Below are positions 15,318 to 63,078 of a stretch of 64,000 bases of DNA, piece after piece; position 1 is the first letter of the stretch, and the number at the start of each line of letters is the position of its first letter. The stretch is from positions 682,001 to 746,000 of the forward strand of contig NGBS01001160.1 of NCBI GenBank assembly GCA_002245135.1, given 5' to 3'. Below the pieces are notes generated by a model. The model worked only from the letters and a program-made list of their open reading frames with translations. It was not told the DNA's origin and did no database searches. Made by a program: the position numbers and the translations under genes. This stretch comes from Proteromonas lacertae. Lineage: Eukaryota.

Positions 15318-15395
15318 AATTCCAAAAGAAAGAGATGGTCAAAATGACATGTCAGAAAGACATTACAGTTAATATTTATTTTTGTTGAATATACA

Positions 15396-18217
15396 ATGTC
15401 TTTAAACAATACATCAATGTATACAAGTCAGGATCCAAATGGAAGTACAATTACAATCAATAGCAACCATAAAACACCTACAAAAGTGAGAATTCATAAT
15501 TCTGGAACAGTGACTGTTGGAATAAATGGAGCAGAAATAAGCAGTGAAGATACTTCAAATGTTGGTGACTATGATATAGATAAACCATATATGTCTGATA
15601 ATTTATCAACAAACAGTGCTGAATCTGGAACATCGTCAGTTGCCTCGGGTATGAACAATTATAACCAATTCCAACCAACAACAAATTACACTAGCAACAA
15701 TAATTTGAATACTAATACTCTTGGTACAGGTTTAGGTAATTATCCAAATAGCTTTTCTACAAGTGGATTAGGTTTAGGAATTAGTGGTATTGGTAATACA
15801 GGATTAGGAACTACTACAAATGGAATAAGTAACACTCCAAATTTAGCATCAGGTTTAAATGGTAATTATGGATTAAATGCAAGCTATAACAATAATCTAT
15901 CAACTTACAGTAGTGGTCTTAGTAATTCTAGTTTAAATATTAATAATCCTCTTGGAATAGGGTTAAATAACAATGGTTTACATTTGAATGGAGATATTGG
16001 TGCTGGTACTAGAGGAATAGGAAGTGGTTTGAATATGAATACAAGACCAATAAGTGGATTAAATACATCATCATTAGGATTAAACACTACTGGATTAAAT
16101 ATAAGTGTAGGTGGAGGTTTAAATACTGGTTTAGGTAATAATGGATTTGGATTGAATACTAGTTTGAATAACAGTCTTGGAAATGGTTTAGGAACAGGTT
16201 TAGGAAATAGTTTAGGTGGAGGTTTGGGTGGTTTGGGTGGTTTGGGTAATACAGGTTTAAATAGTAGTCTAAATACAGGATTAGGAGGTGGCATAGCCAA
16301 TACTGGAATTGGGTTAAACAATACTGGTTTGGGAAATGGTTTGAGTAATGGATTAGGAGGATTAACAGGTTTAAATACAGGATTAGGTTCTGGATTGAAT
16401 ACTACTGGTTTAGGGACTGGATTGACTGGCTTGAACAGTAGTTTAGGAGGTGGTTTAGGTAATAATGGGATTGGATTAAATACAAGTTTAAACAATAATT
16501 ATGGTAATGGATTAGGAACAACAGGTTTTGGAGGTGGTTTGAATACATCAAACTATAGAAGTACAACCATACCAGGTTTAGGAGGAGGAAATGGAATAGG
16601 ATTAAACAGTTTAAATAATTCGACAATACAACCGAATAGTTCAACTTTAGGTGGTTTGGGATTAGGTAATAATAATAATAATACATTTATATCATCAGCT
16701 ATTCCCAATTATAGTACAGGTATAGTAAATAACGATAATAGAGCATCATTAGCTGCTTTAAGAGCTTTACAAGATAAGATACAAAGGATTAGAAAAAGAA
16801 AGAGATTATTATAATAATCAATGTATAAATTTAGAAGATGGTTTGAGAAAAACAAAAACGAAATTAGAGTTAGAAGCTAAAGTATTATTATTATTATTAA
16901 CATTATTATTATTAAAAATAGGATAAAGAAATTCAAAGTATAGTTGCTCAGAATAAAACAAAAGGATTAGAAGACACAATTAAAACTGTTGCTGATTTGA
17001 GAGAGAAAGAAGTAGGGAAATTACAGGAAGAAAAACACAATATAACTCAGCAACTAACTCAAGAAATGATTGAAAGACAAAAAATAGAAAATGAATATAA
17101 AAGAGCAAAAGAAGAAGCAGAACAAAAAGAAAGAGAAGCTGCCAATTTAGCTGAAGATTTAAACAAATCTGTTCATTATCAACAGAACTTAGAAGAAGAA
17201 TTAGAGAGAGAAAAAGAAGAGAAAAGACTATTAGCAGAACAGAAAGCTAAATCTGCTCAAGTAATATCTGAATTAAGTGGATTAAATAATGAATATAATT
17301 CTATAGTAAAAAGTCCTAAGAAATTAAGAGAATCAATTAATAGAATTGAAAAGCCATCAAATAGAAATAAATGTCCAGTTTGTTCAAATGAAATTCCAAA
17401 TAATAATAATAGTATCTATACTCAACCAAACTCAAATTATACAACATCAGTAACATATAAAAGAGGTAAAAAACAGAAGAAGAATGTTCATCAACAATTA
17501 GTTGAAGCAAATCATAATAATCCAGTTCCGTTTATTCCAATGGTTGGTAAAAACACATTTTCTGTATATGGTAAAGTCCAAAATGCAATTCATCCATCTG
17601 AAGCTTATGGAAAGAAGTCTTTAGTTGTTAAAAGAAGAAGTAAAAGTTCATCTAAGAAGAGAGTTGCTTTTCAAGAATCATCATCATTATATCCACAACA
17701 GCAACAACAATCTCAGAATATATCAAATCAAAATACTAATTCATTTGCAGTTCCAGATTATTCTCACAATAATATTCCTGTCACTCCATCACTAAGAAAA
17801 AGTTTTGACAATGCTCAAGAAAGAGAAATAGCAAAGAATGAAGCATTAGAAGATTTTGATAGAATATATTCAAAACATGAACAAAGTTTATTACATTCTC
17901 CCTCTAAATTAGATCTTCAGATTAAAGATATAGAGATTGTGAAAGCTTCATTGGAAGATGAATATGATAGACTTCAAAGAGATTATAAAGAGTTATTATC
18001 TCAATCATATGAATCAAGTGATCCATCAATACAAAGAAGAATAGAAATAATCAAACCTCAACTTGAGAAAAAAGCTCATCAAATATATTTGTTGGAGAGA
18101 TATAAGAAATTAAACATTGACAGTCAATTGCCGAGAAGAGAACAAACCATGACTGATAAACAAGCTGAATCGTTGAGAATATTGAGAGATTTTAAGTCAT
18201 TAGGTGAAGATAAATAG
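15396..18217 (+). CDS. CEP57: CEP57-like centrosomal protein with long Gly/Leu/Asn N-terminal repeat (one apparent +1 frameshift, one intron)
   Basis: NRASLAALRALQDKIQRLEKER (Cep57 CLD start), VPFIP...FSVYGKVQNAIH, and C-terminal LEDEYDRLQRDYKEL...LEKKAHQI (Cep57 MT-binding pattern). Frameshift at 16786-16787; intron 16882-16921. Confidence 0.7.
15700..16670 (+). repeat. Coding low-complexity repeat (GLG/GLN/LNT units)
   Basis: Dozens of ggttta/ggatta/aatact-type units translating to GLGxxLN-like motifs. Confidence 0.85.
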
Positions 18218-18418: not shown

Positions 18419-21400
18419 TTAATCTTCTTTCACATTTGGATCATCTTGTGTAAGAGCTAGCATAGCAGCTAATGTCGCTCTACTAACCTTATCTAAATCA
18501 TCATGATCAGGATTTTGTTTAAATCTAACCATATACACTTGACTATTTCTTTGATTAAGACTAACTCTTTTTGCTTTACTTGATCTTCCTTCTGGTTTCA
18601 TACTTACAGCTGATTCTGAAATAGATTCATTGTTATTTGAATGTATGCTGTTTCTTGTAGTAGCTGTTGTTGTACTTTTTGATGCATCTAATGTAACTGT
18701 ATCAATTGTATTGTTTGTGTTGTAAGCTTGATATACTTTAGGGAAATAATGAATAGTTAAAACAATAAACGCACTCAATTCAATGGCATAAGCTCTTAAA
18801 CCAAGTAATGCATTTGGATTATCTTCTAATATGAAATTCAATGGAACATCAATTATTCCTATTATAACTATTTAAATATAATAAAAAATTATATATTATT
18901 ATTATATATACACATGATTAAGAATGTTGAAGCTAATGTTATTGATTCATTAAACTCACTGGATGCTTTTCTAACAGACCAAGCCAATTTAATACCAAAT
19001 AATAACATTATAGCAATTGCACCAACTTGAATATATACAAATATTTGATTTACTGTACATTCTGGTATAAATACATTCTCAAAGAATGTTGAATATGTAT
19101 CACTTAATGTCTCTGTATATTCAGATTTATCAACACCCCACCATATCCCTAAATATACCAATTGAACAGTTAATGTACCTAATATAACCTTTATTATAGA
19201 CATATTTGATATGGTAATCTTCTTTAGTTCTTTATTGTTGAATAATCTATGAATTCTCCATGCTTTTGCTAAGATGATACTAAATACTAAATCAATTGTT
19301 AAGGTTAATCCCCATACTCTTAACTCACAAATTCCATTTGTTTTAGTAGGTTCAAATATAAAAACTACACCTTCAATTGATAATAACATCAAAGCTATTA
19401 ACATATAAAACAAGAACAATGGTGATGCGAACTTTACTGCACTTATATCACGATAATTCCATAAGAAATAACACAAATATACACAAATCACTATTATTAT
19501 TGATAAAACAACATATAAAACAATTTGTAATACAGTATCAAACTTATATATCTCTTTACCAACACCAAATTCACATCGTGTTGATAAAATTGGATCTGTT
19601 TCAATGTTTATACCTTTTGTTGGATAAACTAATGATTCTTCTCTTGTTACTAATTCTGTCACATAGAAATTTTGAGTTGTATACATAGATGATTTGATAG
19701 TAGTTGATCCACCTGGTATTGTAATAGATTGACCAATTAATGTTAATCTTACATACTCAGTACCTGGCCAATTACCATTTACTTGTTTTGATGCTAATTC
19801 TACTCCTGCTTTCCATAATTGTATTGCAGAATACATAAATGTCATTGTATTTGTTATTGGGAAATCAGATCCTAAATTTGATTGAATTAATCGATTAAAT
19901 GATAATGACACTGTGTTTTGAGTTCCATCTCCATTTGGATTGATAATGAAATTACCTTCCATATAATCTAATTCAGCTTCAGTGAAGAAGTATTGTTCAT
20001 ATGCAAACAATATTAACTTTATCTTTTCCATCAAAATATCATTCCTTTTAAGTGATTCTATAAAATAACTAACTTCATAAGAATATATATTCACATAGAC
20101 TATCACTCTATCATATGTTTCATATAAATCAACTATTGCAGATGAACATTTCTGGAAACTATCTACTGAAACATTATTATTTGAATCGTATAAACAGATT
20201 CCACCTAATGCCAAACCAATATCTGTAAATTGACTAGACATTGCATTAATATCATCAACAATATGACCAACTGGATAAGTTATAACAAAAACAGCATTTA
20301 CTTCAACAGTCTTTAAGAATGGGAATAATGGAACAAGCATTTGATTCAGGGATGGACCAACATGAACAGTATAAGCAGAACAGGCTGAACCATCTTCAGA
20401 TGTGGTAGTAAAATATAATAATTGCAAGTCTTCAGCTATTTCTGTCATTATTTGAATACAGAATATGGATGTACAACCAAACGTTGCTATTATATCATTA
20501 TCAATTATCATATCTTTTACTTTTCTTCTCATTTCGCCTGAATTTGCGCTAAAGAAAGCATCTACAATTACTAATTCATAACCTAATATTCCTCCATCTT
20601 TATTTATTGCATCTATAAACACTTTTTCTACTAATGATTGGTACAAATCACTTAATTGATCAGTTGCATCTGTATTATGAACCATTAAAATATACTTATG
20701 AGGTTTTTCATAACTTGCTTGTTTCACTGAAGCTGACCAATCACAAACAGAATTTCTCAAATTATTTGTATTTATATCACTATATACATCAGGTATAATA
20801 ACTTCTTCTGGACCTTTCACTACATACATTTCTTTCTGTTCTGTTATATAAGCGGTATATATTCTTCTACTAACTACATTACTACTTGTCACAATAATAA
20901 AATCAGATGGAGATGTGTATTTTCTACCATATATTACAGATCTTACAGTATCTGCATCAAATGTATATGCTTTCTGAACTGCATCAGCCCATAATAATAA
21001 TGATGAATAAGAAGCTTCCATATATGACTCAATCTTTGAATTCCAGCCAATTCTTTGACATAAATGATTTGCAAAATCATTAATCGAATTTGAAGATATT
21101 GTGACTGCTGATAATGAATCATTAGCAAGAGATGGGAAGAATGATGAAATTATATAATGATTAGCTACACATTTACCTTCTAAACTATCTAAATAATGAT
21201 TTTGGAAGAATAAACTAACAACAGTATATTTTGGAGCATATAAATAATTATCACACATTTCTTTCATGAAATCAACAATTAACGAAGTAGATAGACAATT
21301 AACTATTGTACCACCATTCACTATTTTACTTTTCATTAATTCTACTGATGTTTTTAGATTCTCTTTAGTCAATAATGTTTGACCATTACTATTCAAATGT

Positions 21401-24400
21401 GATTCTCCAATTATTTGACCTACCATTAATTTACATTGTAGACCTATCTCACTACCGTCATATACAATAAATATAGTCTTCATTGTTTCATACAAATATA
21501 ACTTTAATGGGATTTTCAATTGATCTAACATGTAATTCACTGAAATTGCGTTTTGAAAACACATTTCACCTGGATTATAGCCTGGGAAGAAATATAATAT
21601 CTTTTCTATTCTTGGTCCAACATTTGAATATACTTCACTCTTTATTCCACCAATTATTAACTTTGGATCTGAATCTTTCACTGTTTCAACTATACTAAGG
21701 AATTCTGCTTCATCAGAATTTGTATCTCTTATATCAGCTATTACTTTATTATCCAAAATACCACCATTTTCATTAATCTCATCAATTGCTAATAATATTG
21801 AATCTAATAATTTCAATTCTTCTTGTGCATCATTTCCTGTTAATGCAACTGGAACTACCACAGTCACAGTCCTTTCCTTTTTCTTCTTACCTATCGAAGC
21901 ATCAGTAAAATCACATGTGAATAATTCAGTCTTACCTTCACTAATCCATGGAGATCCTTCTATTGCAGTATTGGTTGAATAAACTAATGCAAATTTGGAT
22001 GTAGTATTGTCAAATTCTGTCAATGTCATTACACGAGTCATATAATTATTTTTGGATAATGTCAATATACCTTCAGGAGCATTGTATTTAGTTTCATACA
22101 TTGTTTCTCTTACTTTTGAAAAATCTGTTGTTGTATTTGCTTTTATCATTGCATCAAATAATATATTCAATATTGAATAACTTCTAGCAATTCTATCACT
22201 TAGATAAGTTGATCCACTATAATAAGCTTTCATTCTTTCAATAAACTGAACATTTTCATCTCTATTAATTGATTCAGAATAAGCACCAGCAGATTCAAAT
22301 GGTAATATAGTATCTATTGAATCAATAATTTCACCACCACTTGTAAAGGATATTAAATGATAATCTGGTTCATATAAACCTGTATTAATCATTCCTGCAT
22401 TTAATAATGAATGATATTTTGATTCTCCTAAGAATATCAAACAACCTTTATCAAATTGAGATTTCAATGTATGTAATAAAGATGACATAATCACTACATC
22501 AACTGTTGATTCATTATAATATACCATCAATACATTACCACCTTTTCTTTCTAAATACTTCTTCACATATGATGAAGGAACATTATCTAATTCACTGATA
22601 ATAGCAAAACCTGGATATTGTCTGTGAAGTATAATATCTAATAACCTATCATAATAACCAATCGTCAAACCAGCAGCAATTACATTCTTCTCACAAAAGT
22701 CAGGTTTAGACATTGAAGCATCAATCAATAATCCATTCATCTCTGTAATTGTCTGAAATACTTTATTTCTTACTTCATCATTTATACTTAAAAACACCAA
22801 AGGAGTCATCTTAGCCACATCACTTGCTTCACTGTTTATACTATCTTTAATTGCATTTATAAAAGTTAAAGCACCTTCAGCACTATCTGTATTCTTTAAA
22901 TAATGAACAATTGTATGTCCATTAATCCCTTCATTGGCATTATAAGCATCAACAACAGCATTAATTGCTTCAGATACACCTTTATTCAATTCATTATTAT
23001 CACCGCTTGTGCCTATAACGGATGTTAACGTAATTACTTCTTCAACTATCATATTTGCAACACCTCCTTTACCAAATTGACATTGTTGTCCTAACATTGA
23101 AGAATCCATCCAATCATAAGGTTGAGGTGTAATTGGTTCTAGGAAGTAATTAATCAATTGTTCTTCTCCATTATCATCAATATGTACTAATATATAAGGA
23201 TGAGATAAATAATGTGATTCAGAGATTGTTGTATAACCTAATGGACCTTGAAACTTTACATTTTGTAATAACATTGACAAATCTCTTGATGATATTGATT
23301 TAGCATAATATAAACCTTCAGCTAATAGCTGAGTAACATAATACATTTGTACTAATGAATCACCAGGTTCAAAACTGGTATATTGGAAAATTATATCTGG
23401 AACTTTTGTATTTTCTGTATATAAAGGTTGTGCTTTAATAGAATACATTGTTGGAATATAAATATTTCTGAAATTATCATCAAAATAATCTCTATTCATC
23501 GTATTTATAGTAAAAACAAAAAGTGGATATTTTGTCTGAGATATTGATGACATATGATAATCACTTACAAACTGAACACTTTCATAAATGTCAGTAACTA
23601 ACACAATACAGCAACTATCACCATTACATTTATCAGGAATTTCATATATAAATGAACTATATGTAGTTAAAGTATTCAATAAATGAATTCCTTTTAATCC
23701 TAATATACCATGAGCAGTTTTAACAGTTGTCATTGCTAATTTGAGTGAATAAGATGATCGATTTGTTCCAACTATAATAGCATTATGAGGCAATTCACTT
23801 TTAGCAATATATTGAATTGTTTGTGTTACATATTGATTTGGTAATTTACCTGTAAAGTAAGCATTAGCATAACACTCTTCACCTGAAATTGGACCAGCAT
23901 AGAAGAATGCTAATGTTACATTCTGTTTAACATAATTGATTATTGTATCCTTACATTCATTATTTGAACATCCAATAAAGAAAATAACACCCTGACTTTG
24001 TAATATTTTCAATTGTTCTAATGCATATGCTGAGTCTGATTTTATATCTGCAAACATTGTCCTGATTTTATATCCTTTTATATCATACCTTGTATTAACA
24101 TATTTAAAATAACCAATAATCATTTCAATCAGAACTCTATCGTTTTTATAATCATTTCCTGTTGAAGATAACAACACTCCAACATCTAAATATGGATAAG
24201 TCTCTTTACCTTTTTGACCATTTTGTTCATTCCATTTACATGTAGTATATTCTGTTGGATTAAATGTAATAACTTCAGGAATTATATCAGTTAAAACAGG
24301 ATAATACCAATTATTGACAGTATAGTCACCTCCTTTATCAACAATTTGTGATAAATATATTGGAACTTTAAATATATTTGTATCAGCTAATTCATATTCA

Positions 24401-27400
24401 CCAAGAGGTGTAATTACAGCGTTACTGTATAAAACAATTCTTGTAAATTCTGGATCTGCAACACCTAATGCTTCATAAATAGCTGCAATTGTTGAAAATG
24501 ATGCAAATATATTTGTTGCTAATGTCGAATAAGTATATCTGTATGTAAATGTGTTGCTATACCATTCAGTATATTGAGTTTTATCTTCAACTGTATAAGG
24601 ATTGTAAGTATTCCATATTAATTGATTTTCAAAATATCTACCATATGTATCAGAAGCAGCAACTCCAACATCAGCGAAAAATGAGACAATTTGATAAGAG
24701 GGATAAGTAACACCATTTGCACTTAAAACAGCTATAAATTCTGAAGCATGTGCTGATTCTAATAGATTTATTATAATACCACCATTTGGTAATTCCATTT
24801 TAATTGAATTCGATATTGGTGCTAAATCTGTTTTTGTATATGGAATGGTATGTTGACGAATCACATTCAAACCTCTATAAGTCAATTCAAAAGCAACACT
24901 ATCACCAATAGTTTGAGATTTCTTTGTATCACTCATCACTATGACAATATCTCCATCTAAATCTTTGTTTATTGAAGCGTAAAGGGCATTCTAAAGAATT
25001 ATAATTAATATATATATATATATATATATAATACATAAGAAGCAATTGGAGGAGAAACAAATAATGTGTTTTTAAAACAGTATGTTCCTTCTGACAAGAA
25101 TGGAACATAGTATAATATGTTATGTTCATCACATAATGGACCAAATAACTCAATTTCTTCAGATCTATTTAAAAAAAAAAAAGATAAAATGAATTATATT
25201 ATAAATACGATGTTGTTCCAACTAAAGCAACAATATTTCTTTTTAAACCTTTACTAAAACATTCTTTTCCCTTCTCAATATCTCCATGAACATCACAAAC
25301 AAATATATTCATTCTTTGTCCATTTAGATTCGTCATTGAATTTACAGCAATAAATGATACTTCTAATAACTGTAAAGCTTCATCAATTGATTGCTCGACA
25401 TAAGATATAAAGACACCTACATTAAATGTTTGAACTTTCACTTTCTGACCAGCATTACATACATATACTTCATCAACATAATAATCACCTTGAAATGGTT
25501 GGGATGGCCATGATTTTGACACTACATCATCAACTTTAACAATACCATCTTGTATTTTACCAACAATCATTTGTTGTTTAAGATGATTGGTTGAATCAAA
25601 TGCAGTATAGCCAGTAATACCAGTAAAGGATGGAAGTTTAATTGCATTTAATACTACAGCTGGTAATGCATCATAAGATACATAACTTTTCAATGTTACA
25701 GTTAATAAAACAAATGCATTCCATGTTAAAACAATACTATATGGAATAATTGATTTTTCATTCTTATTTCCAACTACATTTAAGAATTCTTTAACTGCTG
25801 GTGCTTCTATATCTGCAGTATAACTAGTAAATACATATTGTCCTTCCATATAACTAGGATTCTTAAGTTCACCTGATAATTCAGTATAGGCAACAACAGG
25901 ATATAGTTTAATATCTGATGATGATGATATTACATTATGATATTGTATATAATATTCTTCCATATCTTCTTGATCCATTATTAATACAGTTAAACATGTA
26001 TCTTTGTATTGTTGCAATGAACTTGTAGCATTTTTTAATGTTTGTTCTCTATCGTTACTATCTTCCCAAGTAAATTTAGTCACACTGTCATAAGGCAACA
26101 TCTCCAATACTGAATCTATTAATTGTATTCTTGTTTTTCTATATTCATCTACCTTTTCAACTATCACTAAGTTTACTAACCCATATTTCTGTAGTAAATA
26201 GTAAAAACCAGGCATTATTTCTTGAGATGGTGATGTAGCTAACATTAATATATTACTTGAACATTCATTACCATAATTTCTACCTGCATGGAATAATATC
26301 ATATTCAATAAACTAACTGGATCTTTCATCTGTTTTAACGATTCTTCAGAACATATACTAAATACATAAATAACATCATCAGCTTTCAATTCCATAAGCA
26401 AATCAGATGCATCTCCTGTTGGACAAGATCTAATAACTGTTACAATTTGTAATCCTCTTATTCCTCCATTACTGTTAATTGTTTCTACTTCAGATATTAA
26501 CATTCCATATAATCCAAATGAATCACTTGGTTTAGTAATATCTAACAAAATACCAACTGGAAATGAGGTGATTTCTTTTTTCTCTAGAATATTAGTGTCA
26601 ATGAAATTGCATTCATAATATTTATTATCATTCATCTATTACAATAAATTAAATATATACATATGTTGAATAAGGTACAGCTTGAATTGCTCCATCACTA
26701 CTATATATTGGTTCATGAAACCAATTATTATTAGAAGTAAACTTGTTAATACGTGTAACAAATATAGGTTTAGATAGATAATTATTATAACCTAAATCTT
26801 CCTCTACACAGAGTGAAATAACGGAATAACCATAAAATAATGATAATAATTTGGAAGTATCATATTTTTCAATTGAATCAAGATTTCTAAAGAACTGTAA
26901 AACATCAAATATATTTACAGCATAAGGAGTAGCAAAATCATTTGCTCTTCCCATCTTTTTATCTATTAAACCTCTATATTGAAGATTTGTAGTATAATTG
27001 GAAGAACCTAAATATGTTGAAAATACAAACACTTTATCCCAAATTGATGGATTTTTATCGACTGTTTTATCCCATATATCAAATACATATAATTTCAAAT
27101 TATCTTCTTTCTTAAAACAATTCTGTACAAACAATTCAGAGTGTTTTTGATTCATAAATATAAACACGCTTGGATTTTGATATGTAGATTTTATATCATC
27201 AAAATAATCATTGGTTGAAGTAAAATTAGTAAAATCAGTTATCTTTGATAGTTTAATATGTTCTGTAGTAAATTGCCTCAACATTTTGTAACCAGCTGAG
27301 GATATATTCACATTATTAATCAGTTCATCACTTATAATTTCTAAATAATCAGAATTTTGGAATGCAAATATTAATGGAGATTCACCTAATTGATTAAATG

Positions 27401-30340
27401 TTCCACCAACATGAACAATATGAGAATTACAAGTTTCACCATAATGAGGATGTAAATCAAATAATAACAAGTTATATTTTGATAATAATGGAGTAATTCT
27501 ATCTATTTCTTCTGCATCATAACCACCAAAAATACCATAGAAAATTGGATTTGATCCATCATAGGTATTACTCATCATATTGATTATATTCTCTTCATAA
27601 TTCTTAAATTTATCCTCATCGTTTAAATGTTTAAAATGATATATACGAATTACTGTATCTTGTACAACTTCGAATGAATTTGCAGCTTCAACTGTGTTGA
27701 TTAATTGCTCAATGTAATCATAATGTTCTGGGTTTGTATGATCATACATACTTCCAAATACAATCAGACTGTAGTTTTGAATTCCAGTATTTTTAGCTAT
27801 ATATATATATATATATATATAATTAATAATATATATATATACCTTCTTTCCATGAACATATTCTATTGGAAGGATAATATATATCTGGATTAATAGTAAA
27901 CTGAGGTATAAACACTGGTACAAATGTATGAGTGTGATCCAATTGATATATCTTTGCAGACATTCTCGTATAACCTGAGAATTCCATACTGAAAATACTT
28001 GGTGTTGTGATAGATTGAGAATATAGAAACTGTTTCATTGTTTCTTTATCATAACCTCCGGCTTGAGTTCAAAGCTTGAGCAATTAAATTGATTGAATTA
28101 AGAGCAACTGCAGCATCTGATGTGTATATACCATCATCATATAGATACTCTCTAATATCATTCATTACAGAAGCATTCTCTACATTGAAATAATAACCAA
28201 TCGAAAATAGTCCTGTTAACTAAGGAAATTAATAAATAAAATAGTAATTATTATTATTATACATTTGTATCAACTCCATATGTTTGAACATCTTTTTCAG
28301 TTAGAAATATATTATATATTTCATATCCATTAGCATATGTTAAACTCTCATTATAAAGTGCTTTAAATAGATATTTATTATAGGAAGATGAAGCTGTATT
28401 AATTACTATACCACCATCTGGAAATGCTTCCTTTATTGATTTCGCTATAACTGTTCCTTCAACATCATTCATATCAGACATCATGGCGTTTGATATAATT
28501 CTTACTTCAAACTCTTTTAATCGATATTCTAATGTCTGAATCAAAGCAACAGAAAAACTAAATAAAACATTATTATTAATTTATATATATATATATACGA
28601 TTCATTAGTTCCTACTATAAATACCTCAGGTACTGTAGAACTTCTAGTAATATGACTCATTAATGATTCAGCTATAACAGTTGTAGACAAACCCATCTCA
28701 AACCTATCAGAAATGCATTTATCTGAATTGGATTGTGTAGTAATAATGAATATTACATTCCATTTATTAGCATTAACATCTAATTTTAATATTAATAAAA
28801 GAAAAAATATTTATATACATTGATATAAAGGAGCCATTGCATCATCAAATGCAGCTACAAATATAACAGCAACTTCATATTTCTTATAATAATATTCAAC
28901 CTATTATTGATATATATATATATATTATAATATACTTGAGGAATTAAGGCAAATGATGGAATGTCTGAATTGATTACATAAGCTCTAACATGTTTACCCA
29001 TAAAACCACCCTATTAATTACAATAATTTAAAAATAATCAATACAATTTTATTCAAATAATCAACAACAGCTACTTCAAAATTACTAAGAAACTGAGCAT
29101 TTTGCCCTGCAGATCCACTATTTGGATTTAAAAACAACATAATAACTGATTTTGCACTAGTTTTACCTGTTATTGGATTACTTTGCCAACTACAATGAAC
29201 CAAAGGACATCCACCTATTACTTCCGTTGGATCAAAATAATCATGAGGACCATATGTATGAAGTACTTTAACTGAAACATCTGCATTACTATCTGTAGTT
29301 TTATCAACAAAATCAGTAACATAATAAGAACAAGATGCGTAGTTATGTTCAACTAAAATGACTTTATTATTACCATAAGTATATTCTTTCCCATATAAAG
29401 AATTTGTTAAACCAATTGGTGATAATGTCCCTGCATTGGTATAACCTTGGATTAGTAGATTAAATAATATATAGTAACCATAATCAACATAGGTATATGT
29501 ATGACTATTGGTTGTGACTGTTGTTTTAAAACCTTCATAAATTAGATCATCATTTAGATAAGTTGGTGTTATTTTAGTTGTTTTCTTTGCTTTTAACCAA
29601 CTATCTGCAAAACTACCTAAGTTAAAATTAACTATTGAATAAACTGTAGCAGGAGGTACAGTATCGAAATTTGAATTCTTATAAAACTTTTCAATTAAAG
29701 TCTCATCTCTATTACATATGATATAAACAGCTCCATCAATATAAAAATTGTATGGACCATTCTTCAACTGCTCATGTGTAACAATTGTAAAGTTATTAAA
29801 TCCTGGAAATGCTAAATTGCCTATTATTTTATCAGTGAAATTGTTCTTTGACCTGGAATAATCATCTTCAATTATAACAACTGGAATGAATGGATTTCTT
29901 GCATCAGCAATTACTATCTGTCCATCTATAAGAATAATAGAAATAATATATAAAATACATGTCATTAATATTGGAACTAAAGAACTGAAATATATTACAT
30001 TCTTTGTACAGGATTCTTGAGCATAAGCGTAAGACATCCATACGAAAAAAGGTTGATAGTTAAACTTGTCTGTAGCACTAAACAGTAATTCATCTGCGAA
30101 TATATGAAGTACTTTATCAGCCTTTATCCGATTTATCACAGTATCAATATCTGATAGATCTGATAACACAGTATAATCATGATACTCGATTGTTACACTT
30201 AAAGTAGTGGCTAATTGCTTAAAGAAGTCCTCATAAAAAGAATCCACAGCTCCACCATGAATATAACCTATTTTAATATCATCTGCACACTGTATAGAAA
30301 TTAATAATAAAAAATATATAAAAACTATATTGCCTTTCAT
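18419..30340 (-). CDS. Giant class C GPCR-like receptor: signal peptide, nine tandem type-1 periplasmic-binding (UrtA/AmiC-like) domains, 7tm_3
   Basis: Start MKGNIVFIYFLLLISIQCA. Repeated G-x-x-C-x-x-N motifs and terminal C-x-(W/F) motifs. TM region VKFASPLFL, CELRVW, AKAWRIHRLF, VRKASSEFNES. ORF pieces are joined by short GT-AG introns and one apparent frameshift near 28067. Confidence 0.85.
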
Positions 30341-30485: not shown

Positions 30486-32628
30486 CTACTTTTTCTTGGT
30501 TGGTGTCTTTACTTTATCTAACTCATTTTTTGTCTTTTCAGAAAAGTTTATTTTAGATTGCAATGCTTTGTGTTTCTTCTCTCTCGGAGTTTCTTCATCT
30601 TCTTTCTTTCTCTTTTTCTTTTTAGGTATTTCTTTCTCACTTTCTACAACATCAGCATGAGTATTATTCTTTATTTTCTTCTTTTTTATCACTTTTTTAT
30701 TTTCTTCTTCTTCTTCTTCTTCGTGGAGTGACTTAACGGGTGGTATATCCTCTGAATCTGATAATTGTTCTAAACGTTTAGGTATAATCTCTTTTATATT
30801 ATTTGTTGCGTTTTTTGGTATTATTGGTTTACTATTTATATTGTTTGTTTTACTATTTTTTGGCTTATTATTTTCAGTTGATTTAAACATATTTTTAATT
30901 TTCCCTACCATTTTACATATTTTTTTTACAGCTCCTTCATTATTCTCTGAGTTATAATAATTATTATCTAATTTCCTTTTTACACATTTTGTTTCTGTTT
31001 CTTGTTGTGGTGGTTTTAGTGTTTTACCTTCCAATATATCCATTACACTGGGTAATTTACTATCTTCTTCTTCTTTATCTTCTTTTTGATTATTACTTTC
31101 ATTCTTTTCTTTATCTTTTTCTTTCACTGATATTAATGTCTGTTTTATTAATCCTTTCATTGGTAATAATGGACAAGTTTTGTTTAGTTTTAACAACAAT
31201 TCGTTTTGTTCAATTAAATAATTTCTATCATGAAGAGAATTGATTATTTTTTTGTTTTTATTGAAATTCCTATCCTTTTTCTCTTTGTTTTTGTTTTTGT
31301 CTAAATAAATCTCATGAACTAAATACATTAAATAACTTCTCAAAAATTTGGAATCTTTAGGAAAATTACATTTTTTTGACCATTCTTTTAAACTACTAAA
31401 ATCAATTATTTCTTGAGATTGTAGAAAATAAAACAAATAAAATAAAACAAAAACTCCACAATCTCTAGCATTCTCTTGTCTTGGAAGATCTAATTTTTTA
31501 TAGGGCAATTCAAGTGGCTGATGAAATATCTTCTTATGTTCTTCTTCTTCTTCTTCTTCACTATATAATTTACAATACAACTTTCTTATTTTATCTTGAA
31601 TCACTGTAATACTGTGAATTCCCATTGAATCCATTAATATTATAAATGGTTGAGTCTAATTTAAATACATAATAATAAAAGATAAATAATATATATATAT
31701 ACACTTTCTTTATACTCATATAGATGATCTTTGTATTTCTTATAGTATTTATTTGCATTTACCATAACAGCTAAAGACCAGTGCATATCTAAATTAATTG
31801 GAAATATCAGATATTTCACTTTCTTAAGATTCAAATCTTTAAACCATGATTTATCAATTTTCTCAATTGATTTGAATAAATATAATGACAAAAATGATGG
31901 GAAAATATAATATTTATCTAAGCGTTTATTATCACTAATGTTATAAAGTGAATAAAATGCAAAGAAGTCTATATCTGCGTCATTCAACCATCCATCCTTA
32001 ATTAAATTCTATAATAATTATGAATAACAACAAAAAATACTAAATCATATTCAGTTAATAAAGCATTTTTAAATGATAATATTGTTATTCCTTTATTCTG
32101 TATTGGTGAAGGTGATACTGACTCATCGTCACTTTCTATATCAACTATTTCAGGAATAGGATTTGGTTTTGATGATTTAGGAGATTTAAATAAACTGTTA
32201 TTACACTTAAATGAGTTGATACTTAATTTACGATTTGATGCAGGAGTTTTATTTGGATTAGAACTTTTGCATGACTGAGGTGTAGATGGCATTTTTGGTC
32301 TTGTTGATTCTATAATGATATATATTTTAATTAATATACTTAGTTTATTTGATAATTCTAAATTATAGTGTTTATTACATTCTTCTTTAACTTTTGCACT
32401 ACATTTGGTTGGAGTAGTGTATTTGGAGCTATTTTCTTTATCTCTGTGCTCTTTTAATTTTTTCAATACATTAAGAGATATACCGGTGTTTATTTTCTTC
32501 TGTATATGTAATTTACTTCCTGATATAAGCTCTTTCATTACATTTTTCTTTATATCTTTTAATTTATGATTACTATTATTCTGAATTACAAGTTGTGCAA
32601 AGCCTGAAGATCTTGATAATTTACTCAT
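30486..32628 (-). CDS. Ulp1/SENP-family SUMO protease (peptidase C48)
   Basis: GWLNDADIDFF, LIFPINLDMHWSLAV, ILMDSM and PRQENARDCGVFVL give the His/Asp/Gln/Cys catalytic set. Confidence 0.88.
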
Positions 32629-32707
32629 TTTCTAAAAATATAGTCGTTTCATTATTCTTTAATTCTTTGTTTTCTCATTATCTATTTATTTACTTTGATA
32701 AATTAAT

Positions 32708-38670: not shown

Positions 38671-40065
38671 CTACATATGAATTAAACAAAGAATTCCACA
38701 TGATAATAGCAATGTAATTGGTGTTAATATACATCCAACCTTTATAAATGTGAAAAAGGAAATATTAATCTTATAATCTAACAATATTCTTAACCACATA
38801 ATACCAGCTAAAGCTCCTAATGGAGTTAAATTTGCACCTAAATTACTACCAATAACAGATGCAAAAACAGCATTTTCATTAAATGGCTTTGACATGGATG
38901 ATATAATAGGAACAAATGAAACAGACATTGGTATATTATTTAATACATTAGCAGCAATGGTTGAACCAACACCATAAACTAATAATACTTTAACATTTGA
39001 ATCTGATATACCAGAAAGAAAATGACCAATTTTTGAAAATACATCATGAAATGTTAAGCAATTTACTAATATAAATAATGAAGGTAAAAATGGAAGAATT
39101 GGCCAAGGTAAAGTAGACATTATAGAAATAAAGAAACCAGGGGATGGTTTTCTGACTATATCAATAACAATATTATAAATTAATAAAACTAATCCTAAAA
39201 TAGCAGAAATTTGCCACATCTCAAATGGAAAGAATGGTAATGAACTAATTGCCATTAAAACTATAGTTATTGATAATATGATTAAACCAACAATCATATC
39301 ACATTTATTTTTAATGCATTCACTTGGATCATGAGGACTTCCCACTTTTGTGAATGGCATGTTAATCTCTTTACTAAAATAAATGTATAAAACAAAAACG
39401 TTAGTTAATCCACCTATTAGTGTAGCAGGAACCATGTAAACGAAAAAATGTATAAATGAAATATTGAATGCTGTTCCTAATACTATGTTTGTTGGATTTG
39501 AAATAATGAATATCATACTCCATGTGTTTGCAGCAAAAAATTCTCCAAATAAAAAAGGAATTGGGTCTATTCCTACAGCTTCTGCAAAATGATATATAAA
39601 AGGAGTAAATGTCAAAATAACAACATCATTTGAAGTGAAAACAGTTAAGACTGAGACTGTGAAATATATTATAAAGTACAATTTACGACTACTACCTCCT
39701 GATTTATTTACAGCGTATAATGCACACCATTCAAAAAATCCTGTGCAATCTAAAAATTTAGATATATAAACCATTGAAAAGAACAATATAATAATCCCAA
39801 CAGGATTTAATCCTTGAAACATCCACAATCCATCCATAGCGACTTTAAACGGAATACAACCAGTAGCCAAGCAAATAATAGCTCCAATAAAAGGAAATAT
39901 AAAAAATGTTTCAACTACAATAACTCTCTTATAACTAGTACCTACAACGTTATATTCAACTCTCTTTCCGTATTTATATGTAATTGTCGGTTTAAAGAGT
40001 GCCAACAGCGCCATACCAGCGATTGATATACAAAATATGATTATAGATAATATGAATTTATCCAT
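38671..40065 (-). CDS. ArsB/NhaD (ion transporter superfamily) permease, intronless
   Basis: Multi-TM protein with TSNDVVILTFTPFI, ANTWS...SNPTN, NNIPMS and IGSNLGANLTPLGALAGIMW. Confidence 0.85.
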   Translation of the reverse strand: MDKFILSIIIFCISIAGMALLALFKPTITYKYGKRVEYNVVGTSYKRVIVVETFFIFPFIGAIICLATGCIPFKVAMDGLWMFQGLNPVGIIILFFSMVYISKFLDCTGFFEWCALYAVNKSGGSSRKLYFIIYFTVSVLTVFTSNDVVILTFTPFIYHFAEAVGIDPIPFLFGEFFAANTWSMIFIISNPTNIVLGTAFNISFIHFFVYMVPATLIGGLTNVFVLYIYFSKEINMPFTKVGSPHDPSECIKNKCDMIVGLIILSITIVLMAISSLPFFPFEMWQISAILGLVLLIYNIVIDIVRKPSPGFFISIMSTLPWPILPFLPSLFILVNCLTFHDVFSKIGHFLSGISDSNVKVLLVYGVGSTIAANVLNNIPMSVSFVPIISSMSKPFNENAVFASVIGSNLGANLTPLGALAGIMWLRILLDYKINISFFTFIKVGCILTPITLLLSCGILCLIHM

Positions 40066-40716
40066 AAACAAAAAAATGTAATTGTTTCAAAAATATATTC
40101 GTTTTGATGGAATAGTATTTCAAGCAACACTATATTCATTCATTTATATTACAATAGTTGTATATCTTCCCATTACAACTGCTAGTAAAAAACAATTCTT
40201 CACTATAATTCCTAAAATCATTCACAAAAGCAGAACATTTATTATATTTTTTGTTATATCATCGTAAACACTCTTATTTGCACCAGTTGCCCATATCATA
40301 AATACACTATTTGATGTACAAGATTGCATTTTTTCTTCTTTCAATACTGATACTATATTTAATAATATATTGCATTCATTTTCAGATTTGCAAAATTTAC
40401 TATCCATTTTATTCAATATATTATTCAAAAATCAAATTATTATGATTCTTTTGTGTCTTCTTCATTAAATTCGGCTTATCTATATCTTTTTTGGTATATT
40501 AATTGATATCTGTTGAGTATTATCAATCAAAACACTTTAGTTAATTCTGTAATGCAAATTTCACATGTTTATAATTAATATTAGTTGCAAATATACCACA
40601 TCATCTGTCAATACTTAGTAACACAAAGATCAATCAGATTCTCTAATCACATCAATCAAATAATTCTTTTTCTTAAACTAAGCTTGATTCCTATCAAACA
40701 TCAAAATTCTTTTTTT

Positions 40717-53265: not shown

Positions 53266-56200
53266 TTATACTTTAGTTCCACGCTTCTTCACTGGAGCTT
53301 TCGATGCTCCACCATGACTTGATTTTACTCTACGACAATAGCAAATTAAACAGCAAACTACAAGAATAATTAACACACCAACAGCTGCAGCAACACCAAT
53401 TATGATATACATTGTAGTATCATCTAATCCTTCTTTTTTAGCTTCAGGAGGTTTTGGAACTACTACTTGTTGTATAGGCGCTTCAATTCTTTTTATAAAT
53501 GTGTATAATGTAGATGACTCAAGTTTATTACCTAGTGCTTCTTTATAAGCTTTTTCGAATGATTCTTTAGCTTGGAAATTAGGTAAATTTTCTTCAACTC
53601 TTGCTTGTGTAACTGTTTCTTTATCTGTTACTATATAAGCATTGAATTCTACTGATTCATCAACAAGAATTCTTCTTCTTCCATTACTTTTCACTGCAAC
53701 TACTTGAACTCGATTTTTACAATTATCTTTTATACCTAAAACTGCACAAATACCTTGTCTTAATCCTTCGATATCTTCCATTAATAAATCATCTATTGTT
53801 ACATTCTTTGCTGTAAATTTAAAAACTACTGTCAAATTATTTTCTTCATTATGAATAATTGGATTTGTACAGTTAGTTGTTAATAAATCACTCCAAATAC
53901 CACCACTCAAACATTCTATTCTTTGATTTCCTATTTTACCATCTAAACATGGTGAATCAAATTTAGATCCTTTCACAGATGTTGGATAAATACCTTTTGC
54001 AACACATCGATAATCATCAGCAATATACACCATCAAAGGAAATGGATCAGATTCTTTATTACCTGTAGATGCTGTAATACCAATTATTTGAATATTATCT
54101 ATAGGATTAGTTGATGTTGGAATTCCTTTTATTGATCCATCAGTTGGATTACCACTTACACCATCTGGTAAATTTTCAAATGTCCATGTCAACAATGGAA
54201 ATATGTTTGCATCATACTCTGGAATCAAATTAATTTCATCTTTTCCTAATCTATATCCTTTCTCTTGTGGAGTATAGGTAAATACTGGTTTAGCTTCTTT
54301 ACAAGTATTATCAAGAGGTATAAATACAGCAATATAATCACTACCAGACTGTTTAATTGTACATCTTGCATTCATTGTACCTTCTTCTCCTTGCTTACAA
54401 CTTCCCTTAGCTATTTCACCAGCATTAACTTCTGGATAAATTTCATCTTTTTCACATTTTAATTGAATTACATTTATCACTAATTTATATTCAGTATCTG
54501 TATCTCCATGAACAATCACTGTAAATTCAGGTGAATTTTGAGTATCTTCAGTTGGAACTCCGATTATTACACCTGTTTTACCATCTAATCTTAAACCACC
54601 TGGAGATTTATTATCTTTCCATTCAAACGATATTGTATCTGGAGGATTACTTACAACTGGTCTTATTTCTAATGCAAATGCTACATATAATTTATCTGGA
54701 ATATTCCATTCCACATTCGTTGGATAAGCATCATGACAATTGTTATCATTTTGTTGAAATTGATATGGAGGATCAGTTTTCATACACATGGCTGTAATTG
54801 TTCCATAAAGAGGAGGTGTACATTTCTTAGTTGCTGTTCCACCTACTTGAGTTCTTGGAAAACCATCTCCTTCACAGACTGGAGCATATATTTTGAAATC
54901 ATGTTTTTGTTCAATACTAATATCACCTATAACAGTAACAGTTGCTTCTGCTATATATGAACTACCTTTAGGGAAAACTGCCATCACATTAGAAACTGAA
55001 ATACCTGTAGGAAGAGGTGGATCAAATGTGATATTGTATTTATAATTGCTTGGTTCAATTGTATAAAACACATTTTTATTTCCATCTGTAACTATTGTTG
55101 ATGATTCAGAATTAAATTCAAATAATGTAGGATAAGCTTCGTCTATTATAATAAATAATAATTATAAAATAAATATACGACAACCAGAATTGGATGGATC
55201 TTCCCATTCTACATCATATGTTGTTTTATCGATTATTTTACATACTCTAGTTATATCTCCATATTCTTTTCCTTCTTCTCCTAATGTTGAACATGGTTTA
55301 GTACCTGTTTTACCTGGAAATGTCACTGCAAATCCACCATCTTCAGCACAATATTTGGCTGTGATTTTCAAATTAAAAGTAGCAGAAGTAGCAGTATTAC
55401 TAACTGTATGTTGTGCTTCATAACCATCTAATTGATCAGTGTTTGTTCCAGATATAATTCCTGTTCTACAATTCAATGTCAATCCTTGGGGTAATTCTGG
55501 ATCAATAGAGCAACTTCCAATCACAGTTTCTGGTTGAATTGCTGGTGGATTACTCTTAAACTCAATACCTGTAATCAACTCCATATCTTCATACTCTAAC
55601 TCTTCTGTAACTTTTTGGACTATTGTAATAGTAAGAGGGAAGGTATTCTTTCCATCTAAATTCTCTATAATAACATTGAATTTATATTCTTCATATATAG
55701 CTTCTGGTGTTCCAGATATAACACCAGTGTTACTATCAAAGATCAAACCACCAGGAAATTCACCACTAATACTGATATTTGAATGATAATGTTCTGTAAT
55801 TGGCTCGATAGGCTCAATCTCTTGTAAAGCTACAAATTGATATTCAGATTCTGGATATGTAATAGTTGGTGTAATATATGCTATAAGTTATTAAAAATAA
55901 TAATATATTTATACTGCATCTAGCGTTTGGAACCCATATTGGTGGTATGTAATTAGTAGAACAGACATATTCGCCAGCTACATTTTTATAAATATCACTG
56001 TAACTACTACAATCATGTACAGCTAATGTTTGCCCAGCTTCTGTTTTAGGAAAAATGCCATCATCACAATAAGATACTATAACATTATAATAATTAAAGA
56101 AATATACTTTCAGAAGTAATTGTAACAACCAAACTACCTGTGTCTTCTGCTAAAGCTCCTACATATGATACTGTACATTCTAAATCAACTTCTTCAGCTT

Positions 56201-57904
56201 CGGTATTACCATAAATGACACCAAATTTATTAATCTTAATGTTATTTGCTATTATACTTTCTCCACAATCGATTGTAAATGACTCAGCTAAACCTTCATA
56301 AAATGGGATAAACACATTTTTTAATCCAATGAAGAATGTCAACTTATTCTCATTTCCATATGAAAACTCAGATATTTTCATTGGTTTACAATGTTCTTCC
56401 ACTTCTGGATAAAAACCATCATCTCTACATCTCTTAATAGTACCTCCAAATTCACCTTCTGGACATACTTTAACACCATAACTGCCACTAACTGAATCAG
56501 AATAATCATCAGATACACATTTATCCATTCTCTTATATTGAACAGTAAACTCTCCAATTTCTAGATAATTACCATAGGCAATATTATAAGCAAAATTTTC
56601 ATATATTATAATTCTATATCCTTCATAAAAATGATGATTTGGATTATTCAATGGATATGTTTTTACACTTTCCCATCCTAAATTAGAAGGATTCTCTTGA
56701 GTATGTTCATACAAATCTTCCCATACAATTTTTTCTGTTTCTTCTCTCATACGCATGGTTGCTTGAATTATATAAGATTTTGGAAATACATAATTGTTTG
56801 TTACTGTAATAAAGTATACTTGGTTAATATATTTTGCTTTGTTATGGAAATTACAAGTAATAGTGTTTGGAAATAGTGAAGATTCGTCTCCAGCTGTTCC
56901 TTCTAATCCAAATTTTACTTTATTACCATCAATTAATCTTATAAGAGAAGGATCCTTTGTTTTCCCATTTTTTTCTAGCGTTATATTCATACCTGTTGAA
57001 CTTAACTCATTTACCATAGTTTGTGTCACTGCTTCATTATTATTACCTAAAATTCCACTTACTTCTACATATACAGTTTTATCTACACTTAAACTACTTC
57101 TAGTTGAATGTAATACAATTGCAACAGTATTATTTCCATTGATAAATAATTCTTTTGGGGCATATAATTCATAATTCTCAACTGATATTTCTTCATCAGC
57201 ATATTGATTAAATACTCCTGCATTTTCAATTCCAATACCTCTTGCATACACTTTAAAACCATTTAGATATAAAGCAAATGATGTGTTAGCTGTTATCTTA
57301 ATTAAAAATTGTTCTAAATTATTTAAATCAAAAGTCAATTCAAAAGTATTTCTATAGTATATTGTAGCATCACCAATACTACTTGGTAGATTATTTGGCG
57401 AAGTATACACCCATACATACGGATGTAACATTGGATTGAAGATATTTAAATTCCAATTTTCTACTGGGGGAGTATCAACACTTTGATATACATACCAATA
57501 ATCACTGAGAGATATAAACACAGGAGGAACATCATCACCTTCTTTAACTTTCTTAGAAATCACATTTAGTGAACTAACGGCAAATTCAACATCATAACTA
57601 TCAGGTGTTTTTGCTGAAATGATGATGAACTTTGTATAGATTGTTTTCACATCTTTCTTTCAACAATCCAACAATTCTATCTTCAATTAACTCAAGACCT
57701 TTAGGCAACTTTGGTGTAATTTCAATAGTTCCAATTTGCTGAGAACATCTAATTTGCATATTAATCTTTTCATTTAGAAATAATTTGAGATCATCAAGTT
57801 TCTCGCATCTAAATGGTGTTATCGAATCTATATTAAAGAGATGATACAACATTCATACATGATGAACTGATTAATAAAAGGAATGTTAATAATAAAGTAC
57901 TCAT
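53266..57904 (-). CDS. Putative-Ig (He_PIG-like) repeat type I surface protein, array copy 1 (one apparent +1 frameshift)
   Basis: Signal peptide MSTLLLTFLLLISSS, galactose-binding-like domains, LPxGLxL...TGxISG repeats alternating with Cys-rich modules, TM YIIIGVAAAVGVLIILVVCC. Frameshift near 57625. Confidence 0.85.
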
Positions 57905-58180
57905 AAAAGAAACAAACTACAAAAACGTACAGTTACTTTTTCTCTCTTTGATTATCAAAGTTTCTACGATTCTGACCAATCAAATTACAGAAATTAGATT
58001 TCAGTGTCGTTTCAAAATACTCCAATTTTTAAAGAGTATGGAGCATAATTTTGATGAATACATTCTACTAGATAAAATAGTTATTGATGCATAATCGTTA
58101 TGTCATCATAAACAAAACAATAATTGAAATAATTACACTACTTTATCAATTTAATAAACTTACTTCACTATTTTATTACT

Positions 58181-62830: not shown

Positions 62831-63078
62831 AATATTTTGTTTAAAAATGTATAGTTAGATTTTATGCTTAATAATCAAAGCAATTGATCTATCATCCAAT
62901 AGATCAAAGATTCAATTTTTTTAATTCTATTATGAATAACTCATTTTTAATGATTAAAAAATGATATTTAATTATATATAGTCTGATAAATAAAACAATT
63001 AGACATATATAATTGTCTAATGTTAGAAAATAAAATAATAAAAGAATGATAATAATTATACAACACTTCTTTTGAACT

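What the first reader, a model, noticed from the sequence alone, without database searches (positions are those of the whole stretch)
18419..30340. Giant class C GPCR-like receptor with nine tandem bacterial UrtA/AmiC-like binding domains
Seen: at least seven listed ORFs splice into one ~11.9-kb gene (about 3,800 aa) with a signal peptide and a C-terminal 7TM. Nine repeats carry a central Cys motif (QESCTKN, DKCISD, GETCNSH, GNECSSN, GTYCFKN, GEECYANAYFTGKLPNQ, DFCEKN, GEMCFQN, GSACSAY) and end in C-x-aromatic-like motifs (CSW, CSW, CNF, CNA, CKW, CQF, CDF, CDW, CEF). Known: class C GPCRs such as GABA-B and mGluR have one Venus flytrap, and the GxECxxNxFYTGxxPNQ and terminal CDW pattern is that of bacterial urea/amide-binding UrtA/AmiC. 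Inference: a multi-ligand nutrient or amide sensor built by fusing and amplifying a bacterial-type binding protein onto a eukaryotic 7TM. The divergent repeats could sense different solutes.
Basis: partly seen in the sequence, partly recalled or inferred. Interest (0 to 1): 0.88.

Follow-up and report, generated by a model that had tools for sequence, protein, structure and literature searches.

The report
Nine-flytrap class C GPCR in protist
This protist gene spells out a GABA-B-like membrane receptor carrying nine bacterial urea-binder-type clamshell domains in a row instead of one; their pockets have lost the urea-binding residues and likely sense other small solutes, and one frameshift, likely an assembly error, interrupts this copy.

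Summary
The architecture is real. Twelve exons (minus strand, 30340-18419) give about 3,830 aa: a signal-like N-terminus, nine UrtA-type Venus-flytrap repeats, a class C 7TM (Pfam 7tm_3, E 4.5e-34) and a short tail. No ordinary intron removes it, and no reads were available to test it; an assembly error is the likelier cause.

The fold is UrtA's (model pLDDT 92, Z 48.5), but each repeat keeps only 0-2 of 8 urea-pocket residues, so an amide sensor is not supported.

The gene is not a one-off. Of the 150 best hits, 44 carry three or more repeats. Repeats group by position, not by protein (159 of 171), so the array predates a large unnamed family. Distant relatives include Capsaspora and a chytrid, and one unnamed 3,745-aa receptor has nine repeats, five with a complete urea pocket.

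Bacterial-type ectodomains on class C receptors are known. My ten literature searches found no UrtA origin or ninefold array. Verdict: new variant of a known kind; ligands unknown.

The parts
18419..30340 (-). Whole gene, 12 exons (30340-29959, 29925-29045, 29010-28936, 28900-28819, 28779-28599, 28557-28263, 28219-27843, 27796-26661, 26635-25209, 25164-25035, 24990-18912, 18867-18419); 3,830 aa when read with X at the break
30284..30340 (-). Signal-peptide-like N-terminus (aa 1-19)
   Evidence: sequence by eye; no predictor run
29185..30283 (-). Repeat 1, the most divergent flytrap
   Evidence: family HMM 31.8 bits, best of 200 shuffles 2.2; no Pfam hit
27843..29179 (-). Repeat 2, which holds the frameshift
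   Evidence: 122 bits; weak TIGR03407 hit on one exon; pairs with repeat 2 of P0015, support 99/93
28049..28066 (-). +1 frameshift near 28062 and the resulting stop at 28051
26602..27779 (-). Repeat 3
   Evidence: 89-97 bits; no Pfam hit
25453..26601 (-). Repeat 4
   Evidence: Peripla_BP_5 E 8.9e-17
24219..25452 (-). Repeat 5, the position where relatives partly keep the lobe-1 pocket residues
23067..24218 (-). Repeat 6
   Evidence: Peripla_BP_5 E 1.6e-22
21897..23066 (-). Repeat 7
   Evidence: Peripla_BP_5 E 1.9e-19
20733..21896 (-). Repeat 8, closest to UrtA
   Evidence: UrtA 7s6e E 9.7e-19; model vs 8hic Z 48.5, rmsd 2.4 A over 381 residues
19570..20732 (-). Repeat 9, membrane-proximal; its terminal Cys lies about 15 aa before TM1, with no cysteine-rich domain
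   Evidence: Peripla_BP_5 E 4.2e-15
18734..19530 (-). Class C seven-helix domain, with an intron in TM6
   Evidence: 7tm_3 E 4.5e-34; best PDB hit GABA-B2 E 2e-12
18419..18733 (-). Ser/Thr-rich cytoplasmic tail and stop
   Evidence: the last exon has no PDB hit and only two sub-threshold Pfam hits

Best explanation
A class C (GABA-B-like) seven-helix receptor whose outer part is nine tandem clamshell domains of the bacterial UrtA fold; it likely works as a G-protein-coupled sensor of small extracellular solutes other than urea, and the one frameshift in this copy is likely an assembly error. Shown here: the domain order, the fold of repeats 8-9, the loss of the urea residues, and the position-wise kinship of repeats across the family. 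Inferred: (1) a two-cysteine UrtA of the type found in cyanobacteria was joined to a class C 7TM in a eukaryote and multiplied; (2) in this AT-rich lineage an array of about nine became fixed, each position diverged, and then the whole gene multiplied; (3) each repeat is stapled by a disulfide between its central and terminal Cys, so the chain would be a stiff, packed antenna; (4) closure of one or several clamshells would pass through inter-repeat contacts to repeat 9, whose tail enters TM1 after about 15 residues, and would switch the 7TM.
For: Architecture. Fold: AlphaFold2 of repeat 8 + repeat 9 + TM1-6 with 47 rows gives pLDDT 91.9 and pTM 0.84; the top four structural matches are urea-binding proteins, then AmiC. 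7TM: GABA-B2 is the best PDB hit, with the TM3 Cys and the K-x-W-R-x-H end aligned. One-chain precedent: P0002 (3,745 aa, nine repeats plus 7tm_3) and P0031 (3,503 aa, eight plus 7tm_3) are single ORFs. Position kinship: the nearest tree neighbour has the same position in 159 of 171 repeats (shuffled mean 30, max 50) and lies in the same protein in 0. For TM-anchored proteins only it is 80 of 94 against 16. Window repeats 5-9 each score best on their own held-out position profile. Cysteines: both in 177, neither in 22, one only in 14 of 213 domains. Origin: all 35 eukaryote-type repeats and the 4 two-Cys UrtAs form one clade (99/97) when rooted on Cys-less relatives. Pocket columns vary more than average at positions 7-9 (one-sided P 0.044, 0.015, 0.003), as a diversifying receptor family would show. 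Frameshift as error: 3,146 codons after the break have no stop, and the X reading scores 130.6 bits against 98.6 for the only frame-restoring intron I tested.
Against: No ligand, transcript or G protein is shown: no genome was held. Variable pockets fit loss of binding equally well, and among 43 mutual-best pairs of repeats the pocket columns were not significantly more conserved than background in any of three identity bins (0.33 vs 0.31, 0.50 vs 0.40, 0.44 vs 0.49). The frameshift may be real: I saw no other clear frame break in the window, though my check was limited. The model's flytrap-to-TM geometry does not superpose on GABA-B as a whole (rmsd about 25 A), so class C activation may not carry over. 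The 7TMs of UrtA-bearing receptors do not form one clade in the quick tree. The repeats of P0002 show no position signature, so its count of nine may be convergent. Many branches are long. The disulfide rests on co-occurrence only. The P values are uncorrected over six positions, and six proteins with irregular position labels were left out.
Confidence: 0.58

Rival explanations
1. Most repeats are ligand-blind building blocks. The array is a rigid stalk or contact surface (adhesion, host or microbe binding, mechanical sensing), and at most one repeat, perhaps repeat 5, still binds a solute.
For: Pocket columns are at or below background conservation at positions 6-9; only position 5 is above it (0.31 vs 0.21, P 0.045 uncorrected). 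The best-kept residues are structural Cys, Gly, Asn and Pro. In BvgS the membrane-proximal flytrap stays closed without a true ligand (PMC4352136 Discussion).
Against: Faster-than-average change focused on the pocket at positions 7-9 and fixed position identity suit specialised binding sites. The full bilobed fold is kept. Relatives keep complete urea pockets.
Confidence: 0.22
2. The frameshift is real. This copy is a recent pseudogene or null allele in a large family, or makes only a secreted 687-aa fragment.
For: The genomic sequence as given stops at 28051. Large receptor families commonly shed copies (general knowledge). A 70-nt GT-AG stretch could restore the frame in a shortened product.
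Against: It is the only lesion in 11.5 kb of coding sequence, all 11 introns keep canonical ends, and no new start with a signal peptide follows the break. The 70-nt intron is 66% AT against 88-96% for the others and would delete a helix present in 210 of 213 domains.
Confidence: 0.3
3. One reading: a multivalent urea or amide sensor.
For: UrtA and AmiC are the closest sequences and folds. Relatives P0002 and P0001 keep 8 of 8 urea residues in 5 of 8 and 1 of 2 scored repeats.
Against: The window's repeats keep 0,1,1,0,2,1,0,1,0 of 8. The paper reports that mutating any of the four hydrogen-bonding residues strongly lowers or abolishes binding.
Confidence: 0.06

Closest known systems
GABA-B receptor (class C GPCR)
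   Same: 7tm_3 domain, best PDB hit GABA-B2; flytrap joined to TM1 without a cysteine-rich domain.
   Different: Nine flytraps, not one; UrtA type, not ANF type (ANF hit weak, E 0.003 on one repeat); whole-chain geometry differs in the model; no Pfam coiled-coil hit in the tail.
UrtA urea-binding protein (PDB 8HIC, 7S6E, 7S6F) and AmiC
   Same: Same fold including the C-terminal tail (Z 48.5); the two cysteines are shared with Synechococcus UrtA.
   Different: 14-23% identity; urea residues lost; far below the TIGR03407 cut-off (best 103 vs 493 bits); fused in tandem to a 7TM instead of serving an ABC transporter.
Non-metazoan Glutamate-family GPCRs with bacterial-type binding domains (BMP, OpuAC, SBP_bac_1, PBP1; Krishnan 2012, Port 2013, de Mendoza 2014, Seppala 2016)
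   Same: Binding-protein ectodomain plus 7tm_3. De Mendoza's supplement lists a /Peripla_BP//7tm_3/ architecture, and Krishnan's supplement lists Capsaspora CAOG_05347 among its sequences.
   Different: The passages read mention no UrtA origin, urea pocket or tandem array. Reported N-termini reach about 1,600-1,670 aa, against about 3,470 aa here.
BvgS/EvgS sensor kinases (tandem-VFT receptors)
   Same: Tandem flytraps feeding one membrane signal; homologues with up to five are mentioned.
   Different: Bacterial histidine kinases with a single TM helix per chain before the cytoplasmic part; no 7TM; fewer repeats.

Membership tests
Class C GPCR | 7tm_3 transmembrane domain | tested here: met
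   118.7 bits, cut-off 33.5, E 4.5e-34
Class C GPCR | Seven TM helices with TM3/ECL2 cysteines and basic TM3 end | tested here: met
   Seven hydrophobic segments; six helices in the part folded; alignment to GABA-B2. The FNE and F-x-PK motifs are visible in the sequence; that they are class C marks is recalled.
Class C GPCR | N-terminal type-I Venus flytrap domain | tested here: met
   Nine copies; fold modelled for repeats 8-9 only
Class C GPCR | Works as an obligate dimer | not testable with these tools
   Needs biochemistry or a structure
Class C GPCR | Couples to a heterotrimeric G protein | not testable with these tools
   No genome held, so G-alpha could not be sought
mGluR/CaSR/T1R subgroup | NCD3G cysteine-rich domain between flytrap and TM1 | tested here: not met
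   No NCD3G hit; about 15 aa between the last Cys and TM1
UrtA (TIGR03407) | Score above curated cut-off | tested here: not met
   Best repeat 103 bits vs 492.75
UrtA (TIGR03407) | Urea pocket W120,S122,Y141,Q144,E146,Y190,N246,S274 | tested here: not met
   0-2 of 8 per repeat; residues from PMC10392092, mapped through; Synechococcus P0090 gives 8 of 8 as control
UrtA (TIGR03407) | UrtA fold with C-terminal tail | tested here: met
   Repeat 8: Z 48.5, rmsd 2.4 A, 381 residues
Intact expressed gene | Unbroken reading frame in mRNA | not testable with these tools
   One +1 break in the DNA as given; no reads to lay on it

The most novel reading that the evidence does not exclude
An undescribed pan-eukaryotic branch of class C GPCRs built from captured UrtA. 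Its conserved members (P0002 with five complete pockets, P0001) are urea-sensing GPCRs with multivalent antennas. In this AT-rich protist lineage the antenna became a fixed nine-position panel in which each flytrap binds a different solute and one 7TM integrates them, multiplied into a large chemoreceptor family.
Probability: 0.3. Interest if true: 0.86.

Novelty: new variant of a known kind. Interest (0 to 1): 0.64.

Why it matters
Class C receptors are understood as one flytrap per chain, signalling through a dimer rearrangement. A nine-flytrap chain raises a testable question: how can distal domains reach one 7TM? The family also shows a near-continuous series from bacterial UrtA, through receptors with intact urea pockets, to fully diverged repeats. 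That is a direct view of how a transporter's binding protein becomes a GPCR ectodomain, and it names candidates for a urea-sensing GPCR. For the host lineage it points to a large unannotated chemoreceptor repertoire.

Tried and rejected
Genome: none held.

Sequencing runs: none was listed, which is no evidence on expression.

Sequence searches: JGI metagenome scan with the 7TM gave 188 pattern matches, none confirmed. The word-indexed homologue search found 1 relative, and none for the TM alone among longer proteins; the full HMMER search was needed.

Structure jobs: the single-sequence fold of repeat 8 failed (pLDDT 33). Repeat 9 as two copies gave no verdict (score 0.23, mark 0.32, alignment not used).

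ESM Atlas: only ordinary class C clusters for the receptor; the trehalose synthase neighbour gave no usable lineage signal.

Lineage: named kinesin hits were a mix of stramenopiles and plants at about 55-60% identity. A recalled Blastocystis 3'-end motif was not found at the 11 gene ends checked, which have genomic stops. The host is therefore left as an AT-rich protist with short introns, possibly a stramenopile.

Gene-model alternatives rejected: two separate genes (no start with a signal peptide after the break); a 70-nt intron as the fix; retention of the in-frame first intron (26.2 vs 31.8 bits, weak).

Earlier findings: three look-ups returned nothing.

Literature: searches listed no paper on UrtA-type or multi-flytrap GPCRs (31 was for UrtA structure). 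The library lacks most subscription papers. Of the eLife 2025 supplements only one small file was held, so its receptor-domain table could bear on novelty. One de Mendoza file was not searched.
Full report
Observation. The window is a compact eukaryotic genome stretch, about 27% GC. On the minus strand, 11 AT-rich GT-AG introns of 25-46 nt join 12 exons from ATG 30340 to TAA 18419. The joined frame is one base too long: it breaks near 28062 in repeat 2 and stops at 28051 after 687 aa. Read with X at the break it gives 3,830 aa with no further stop. The only frame-restoring intron I tested (28131-28062) is 70 nt and 66% AT. It would delete a helix present in 210 of 213 aligned domains and lowers the profile score from 130.6 to 98.6 bits. 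So the break is either an assembly error or a recent mutation. No genome was held and no run was listed, so this stays open; I put about 65-70% on error.

Anatomy. Pfam Peripla_BP_5 hits repeats 4-9 and 7tm_3 hits the C-terminus. The best NCBIfam family is UrtA, far below its cut-off. A profile iterated from relatives, window excluded, finds all nine repeats; repeats 1 and 3 score 31.8 and 96.6 bits against at most 2.2 for 200 shuffles of repeat 1. The repeats are 12-20% identical to each other. AlphaFold2 on repeat 8 + repeat 9 + TM1-6 with a 47-row alignment gives pLDDT 91.9 and pTM 0.84. Repeat 8 matches UrtA at Z 48.5, then AmiC. The whole model's best Foldseek hits are GABA-B chains, at about 25 A rmsd. 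The 7TM's best PDB sequence hit is GABA-B2. There is no cysteine-rich domain: about 15 residues link the last repeat to TM1.

Family. A search of 1.84 billion representatives with the last 988 residues of the large exon (repeats 8-9 and TM1-6) gave 2,082 hits at E<=0.001, of which 150 were listed. Of these, 44 hold three or more whole or partial repeats, and 23 of the 44 also match the 7TM; many of the others end part-way into repeat 9, likely at introns. The 15 AT-rich-type clusters looked up carry no names and come almost only from Logan. Named distant relatives are Capsaspora CAOG_05347 (up to four Peripla_BP_5 stretches plus 7tm_3) and Phlyctochytrium KAJ3101170.1 (two plus 7tm_3). Unnamed P0002 has nine repeats plus 7tm_3 in one 3,745-aa ORF.

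History of the array. In a tree of 213 domains, repeats group by position counted from the membrane: 159 of 171 nearest neighbours share the position (shuffled mean 30) and none lies in the same protein. With TM-anchored proteins only it is 80 of 94 against 16. Held-out position profiles place window repeats 5-9 correctly; positions 1-4 have too few relatives to test well. So the array was laid down before this family multiplied. P0002 shows no such signature, so its nine may be independent. In a 48-row IQ-TREE rooted on Cys-less bacterial-type relatives, all 35 eukaryote-type repeats group with the 4 two-cysteine UrtAs at 99/97. Those include a Synechococcus protein and a cluster with Alkalinema; most other 'bacterial' labels are assumed from architecture, and long branches abound. 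The 7TMs of UrtA-bearing receptors were not one clade in a quick tree, so one origin of the fusion is not shown.

Ligand. Eight residues are reported as important and conserved for urea binding in Prochlorococcus UrtA (PMC10392092, passages). The window's repeats keep 0-2 of them; P0002 keeps all 8 in 5 of 8 scored repeats and P0001 in 1 of 2. Across the AT-rich family these columns are more variable than average at positions 7-9 and somewhat more conserved at position 5 (uncorrected; six irregular proteins left out). In 43 close pairs they track background. This rules out a urea pocket here but cannot separate new ligands from no ligand. The two cysteines are the best-kept columns and occur together or not at all in 199 of 213 domains; a disulfide is inferred, not seen.

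Mechanism. Most likely a class C GPCR with a stiff multi-flytrap antenna for small solutes, in which closure passes through packed repeats to repeat 9 and TM1. Architecture and fold are shown; ligand, coupling and long-range transmission are inferred. BvgS shows that tandem flytraps can signal through a concerted change and that one may stay closed without ligand (PMC4352136, abstract and Discussion).

What is known. Non-metazoan class C receptors with bacterial-type binding domains are described (passages of PMC3251606, PMC3727952, PMC10445921, PMC5168858, PMC3971589, PMC12716839). PMC8687355 and PMC12965686 were seen as passages and add background only. A /Peripla_BP//7tm_3/ architecture and the Capsaspora protein appear in supplements. 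Searches gave no paper on UrtA-derived or multi-flytrap GPCRs; the library is partial and some supplements were not visible.

Verdict. Observation partly confirmed (one frameshift), interpretation partly supported. New variant of a known kind, interest 0.64.

Noticed in passing
P0044 / P0200 (cluster of 46; JGI, Logan, ENA): Two UrtA-type repeats, one TM helix and a cytosolic glutaminase domain in one chain; the first repeat of P0200 keeps 8 of 8 urea residues. It looks like a urea-responsive receptor-enzyme.
   Followed up: partly
P0002 (Logan, 3,745 aa): Nine repeats plus 7tm_3 with five complete urea pockets, 41-49% identical to Synechococcus UrtA in those repeats: the best candidate for a urea-sensing GPCR.
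   Followed up: partly
P0055, P0085: Proteins of about 1,520 aa with two UrtA-like domains (8 of 8 urea residues, no cysteines) flanking a HEAT-repeat region; probably bacterial.
   Followed up: no
window 53266-64000 (-): Three tandem paralogues of a single-pass membrane protein with He_PIG domains, 82-95% alike over their 3' parts.
   Followed up: partly
window 15348-18217 (+): Convergent neighbour with a long Gly/Leu/Asn low-complexity stretch followed by a coiled-coil-like region; no Pfam hit.
   Followed up: no
window 30486-32631 (-): Upstream neighbour with a Ulp1/SUMO protease domain, ending about 150 bases before the receptor's ATG.
   Followed up: partly
window 38671-40086 (-): ArsB/CitMHS-type transporter, a family that is mostly prokaryotic (recalled).
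   Followed up: no
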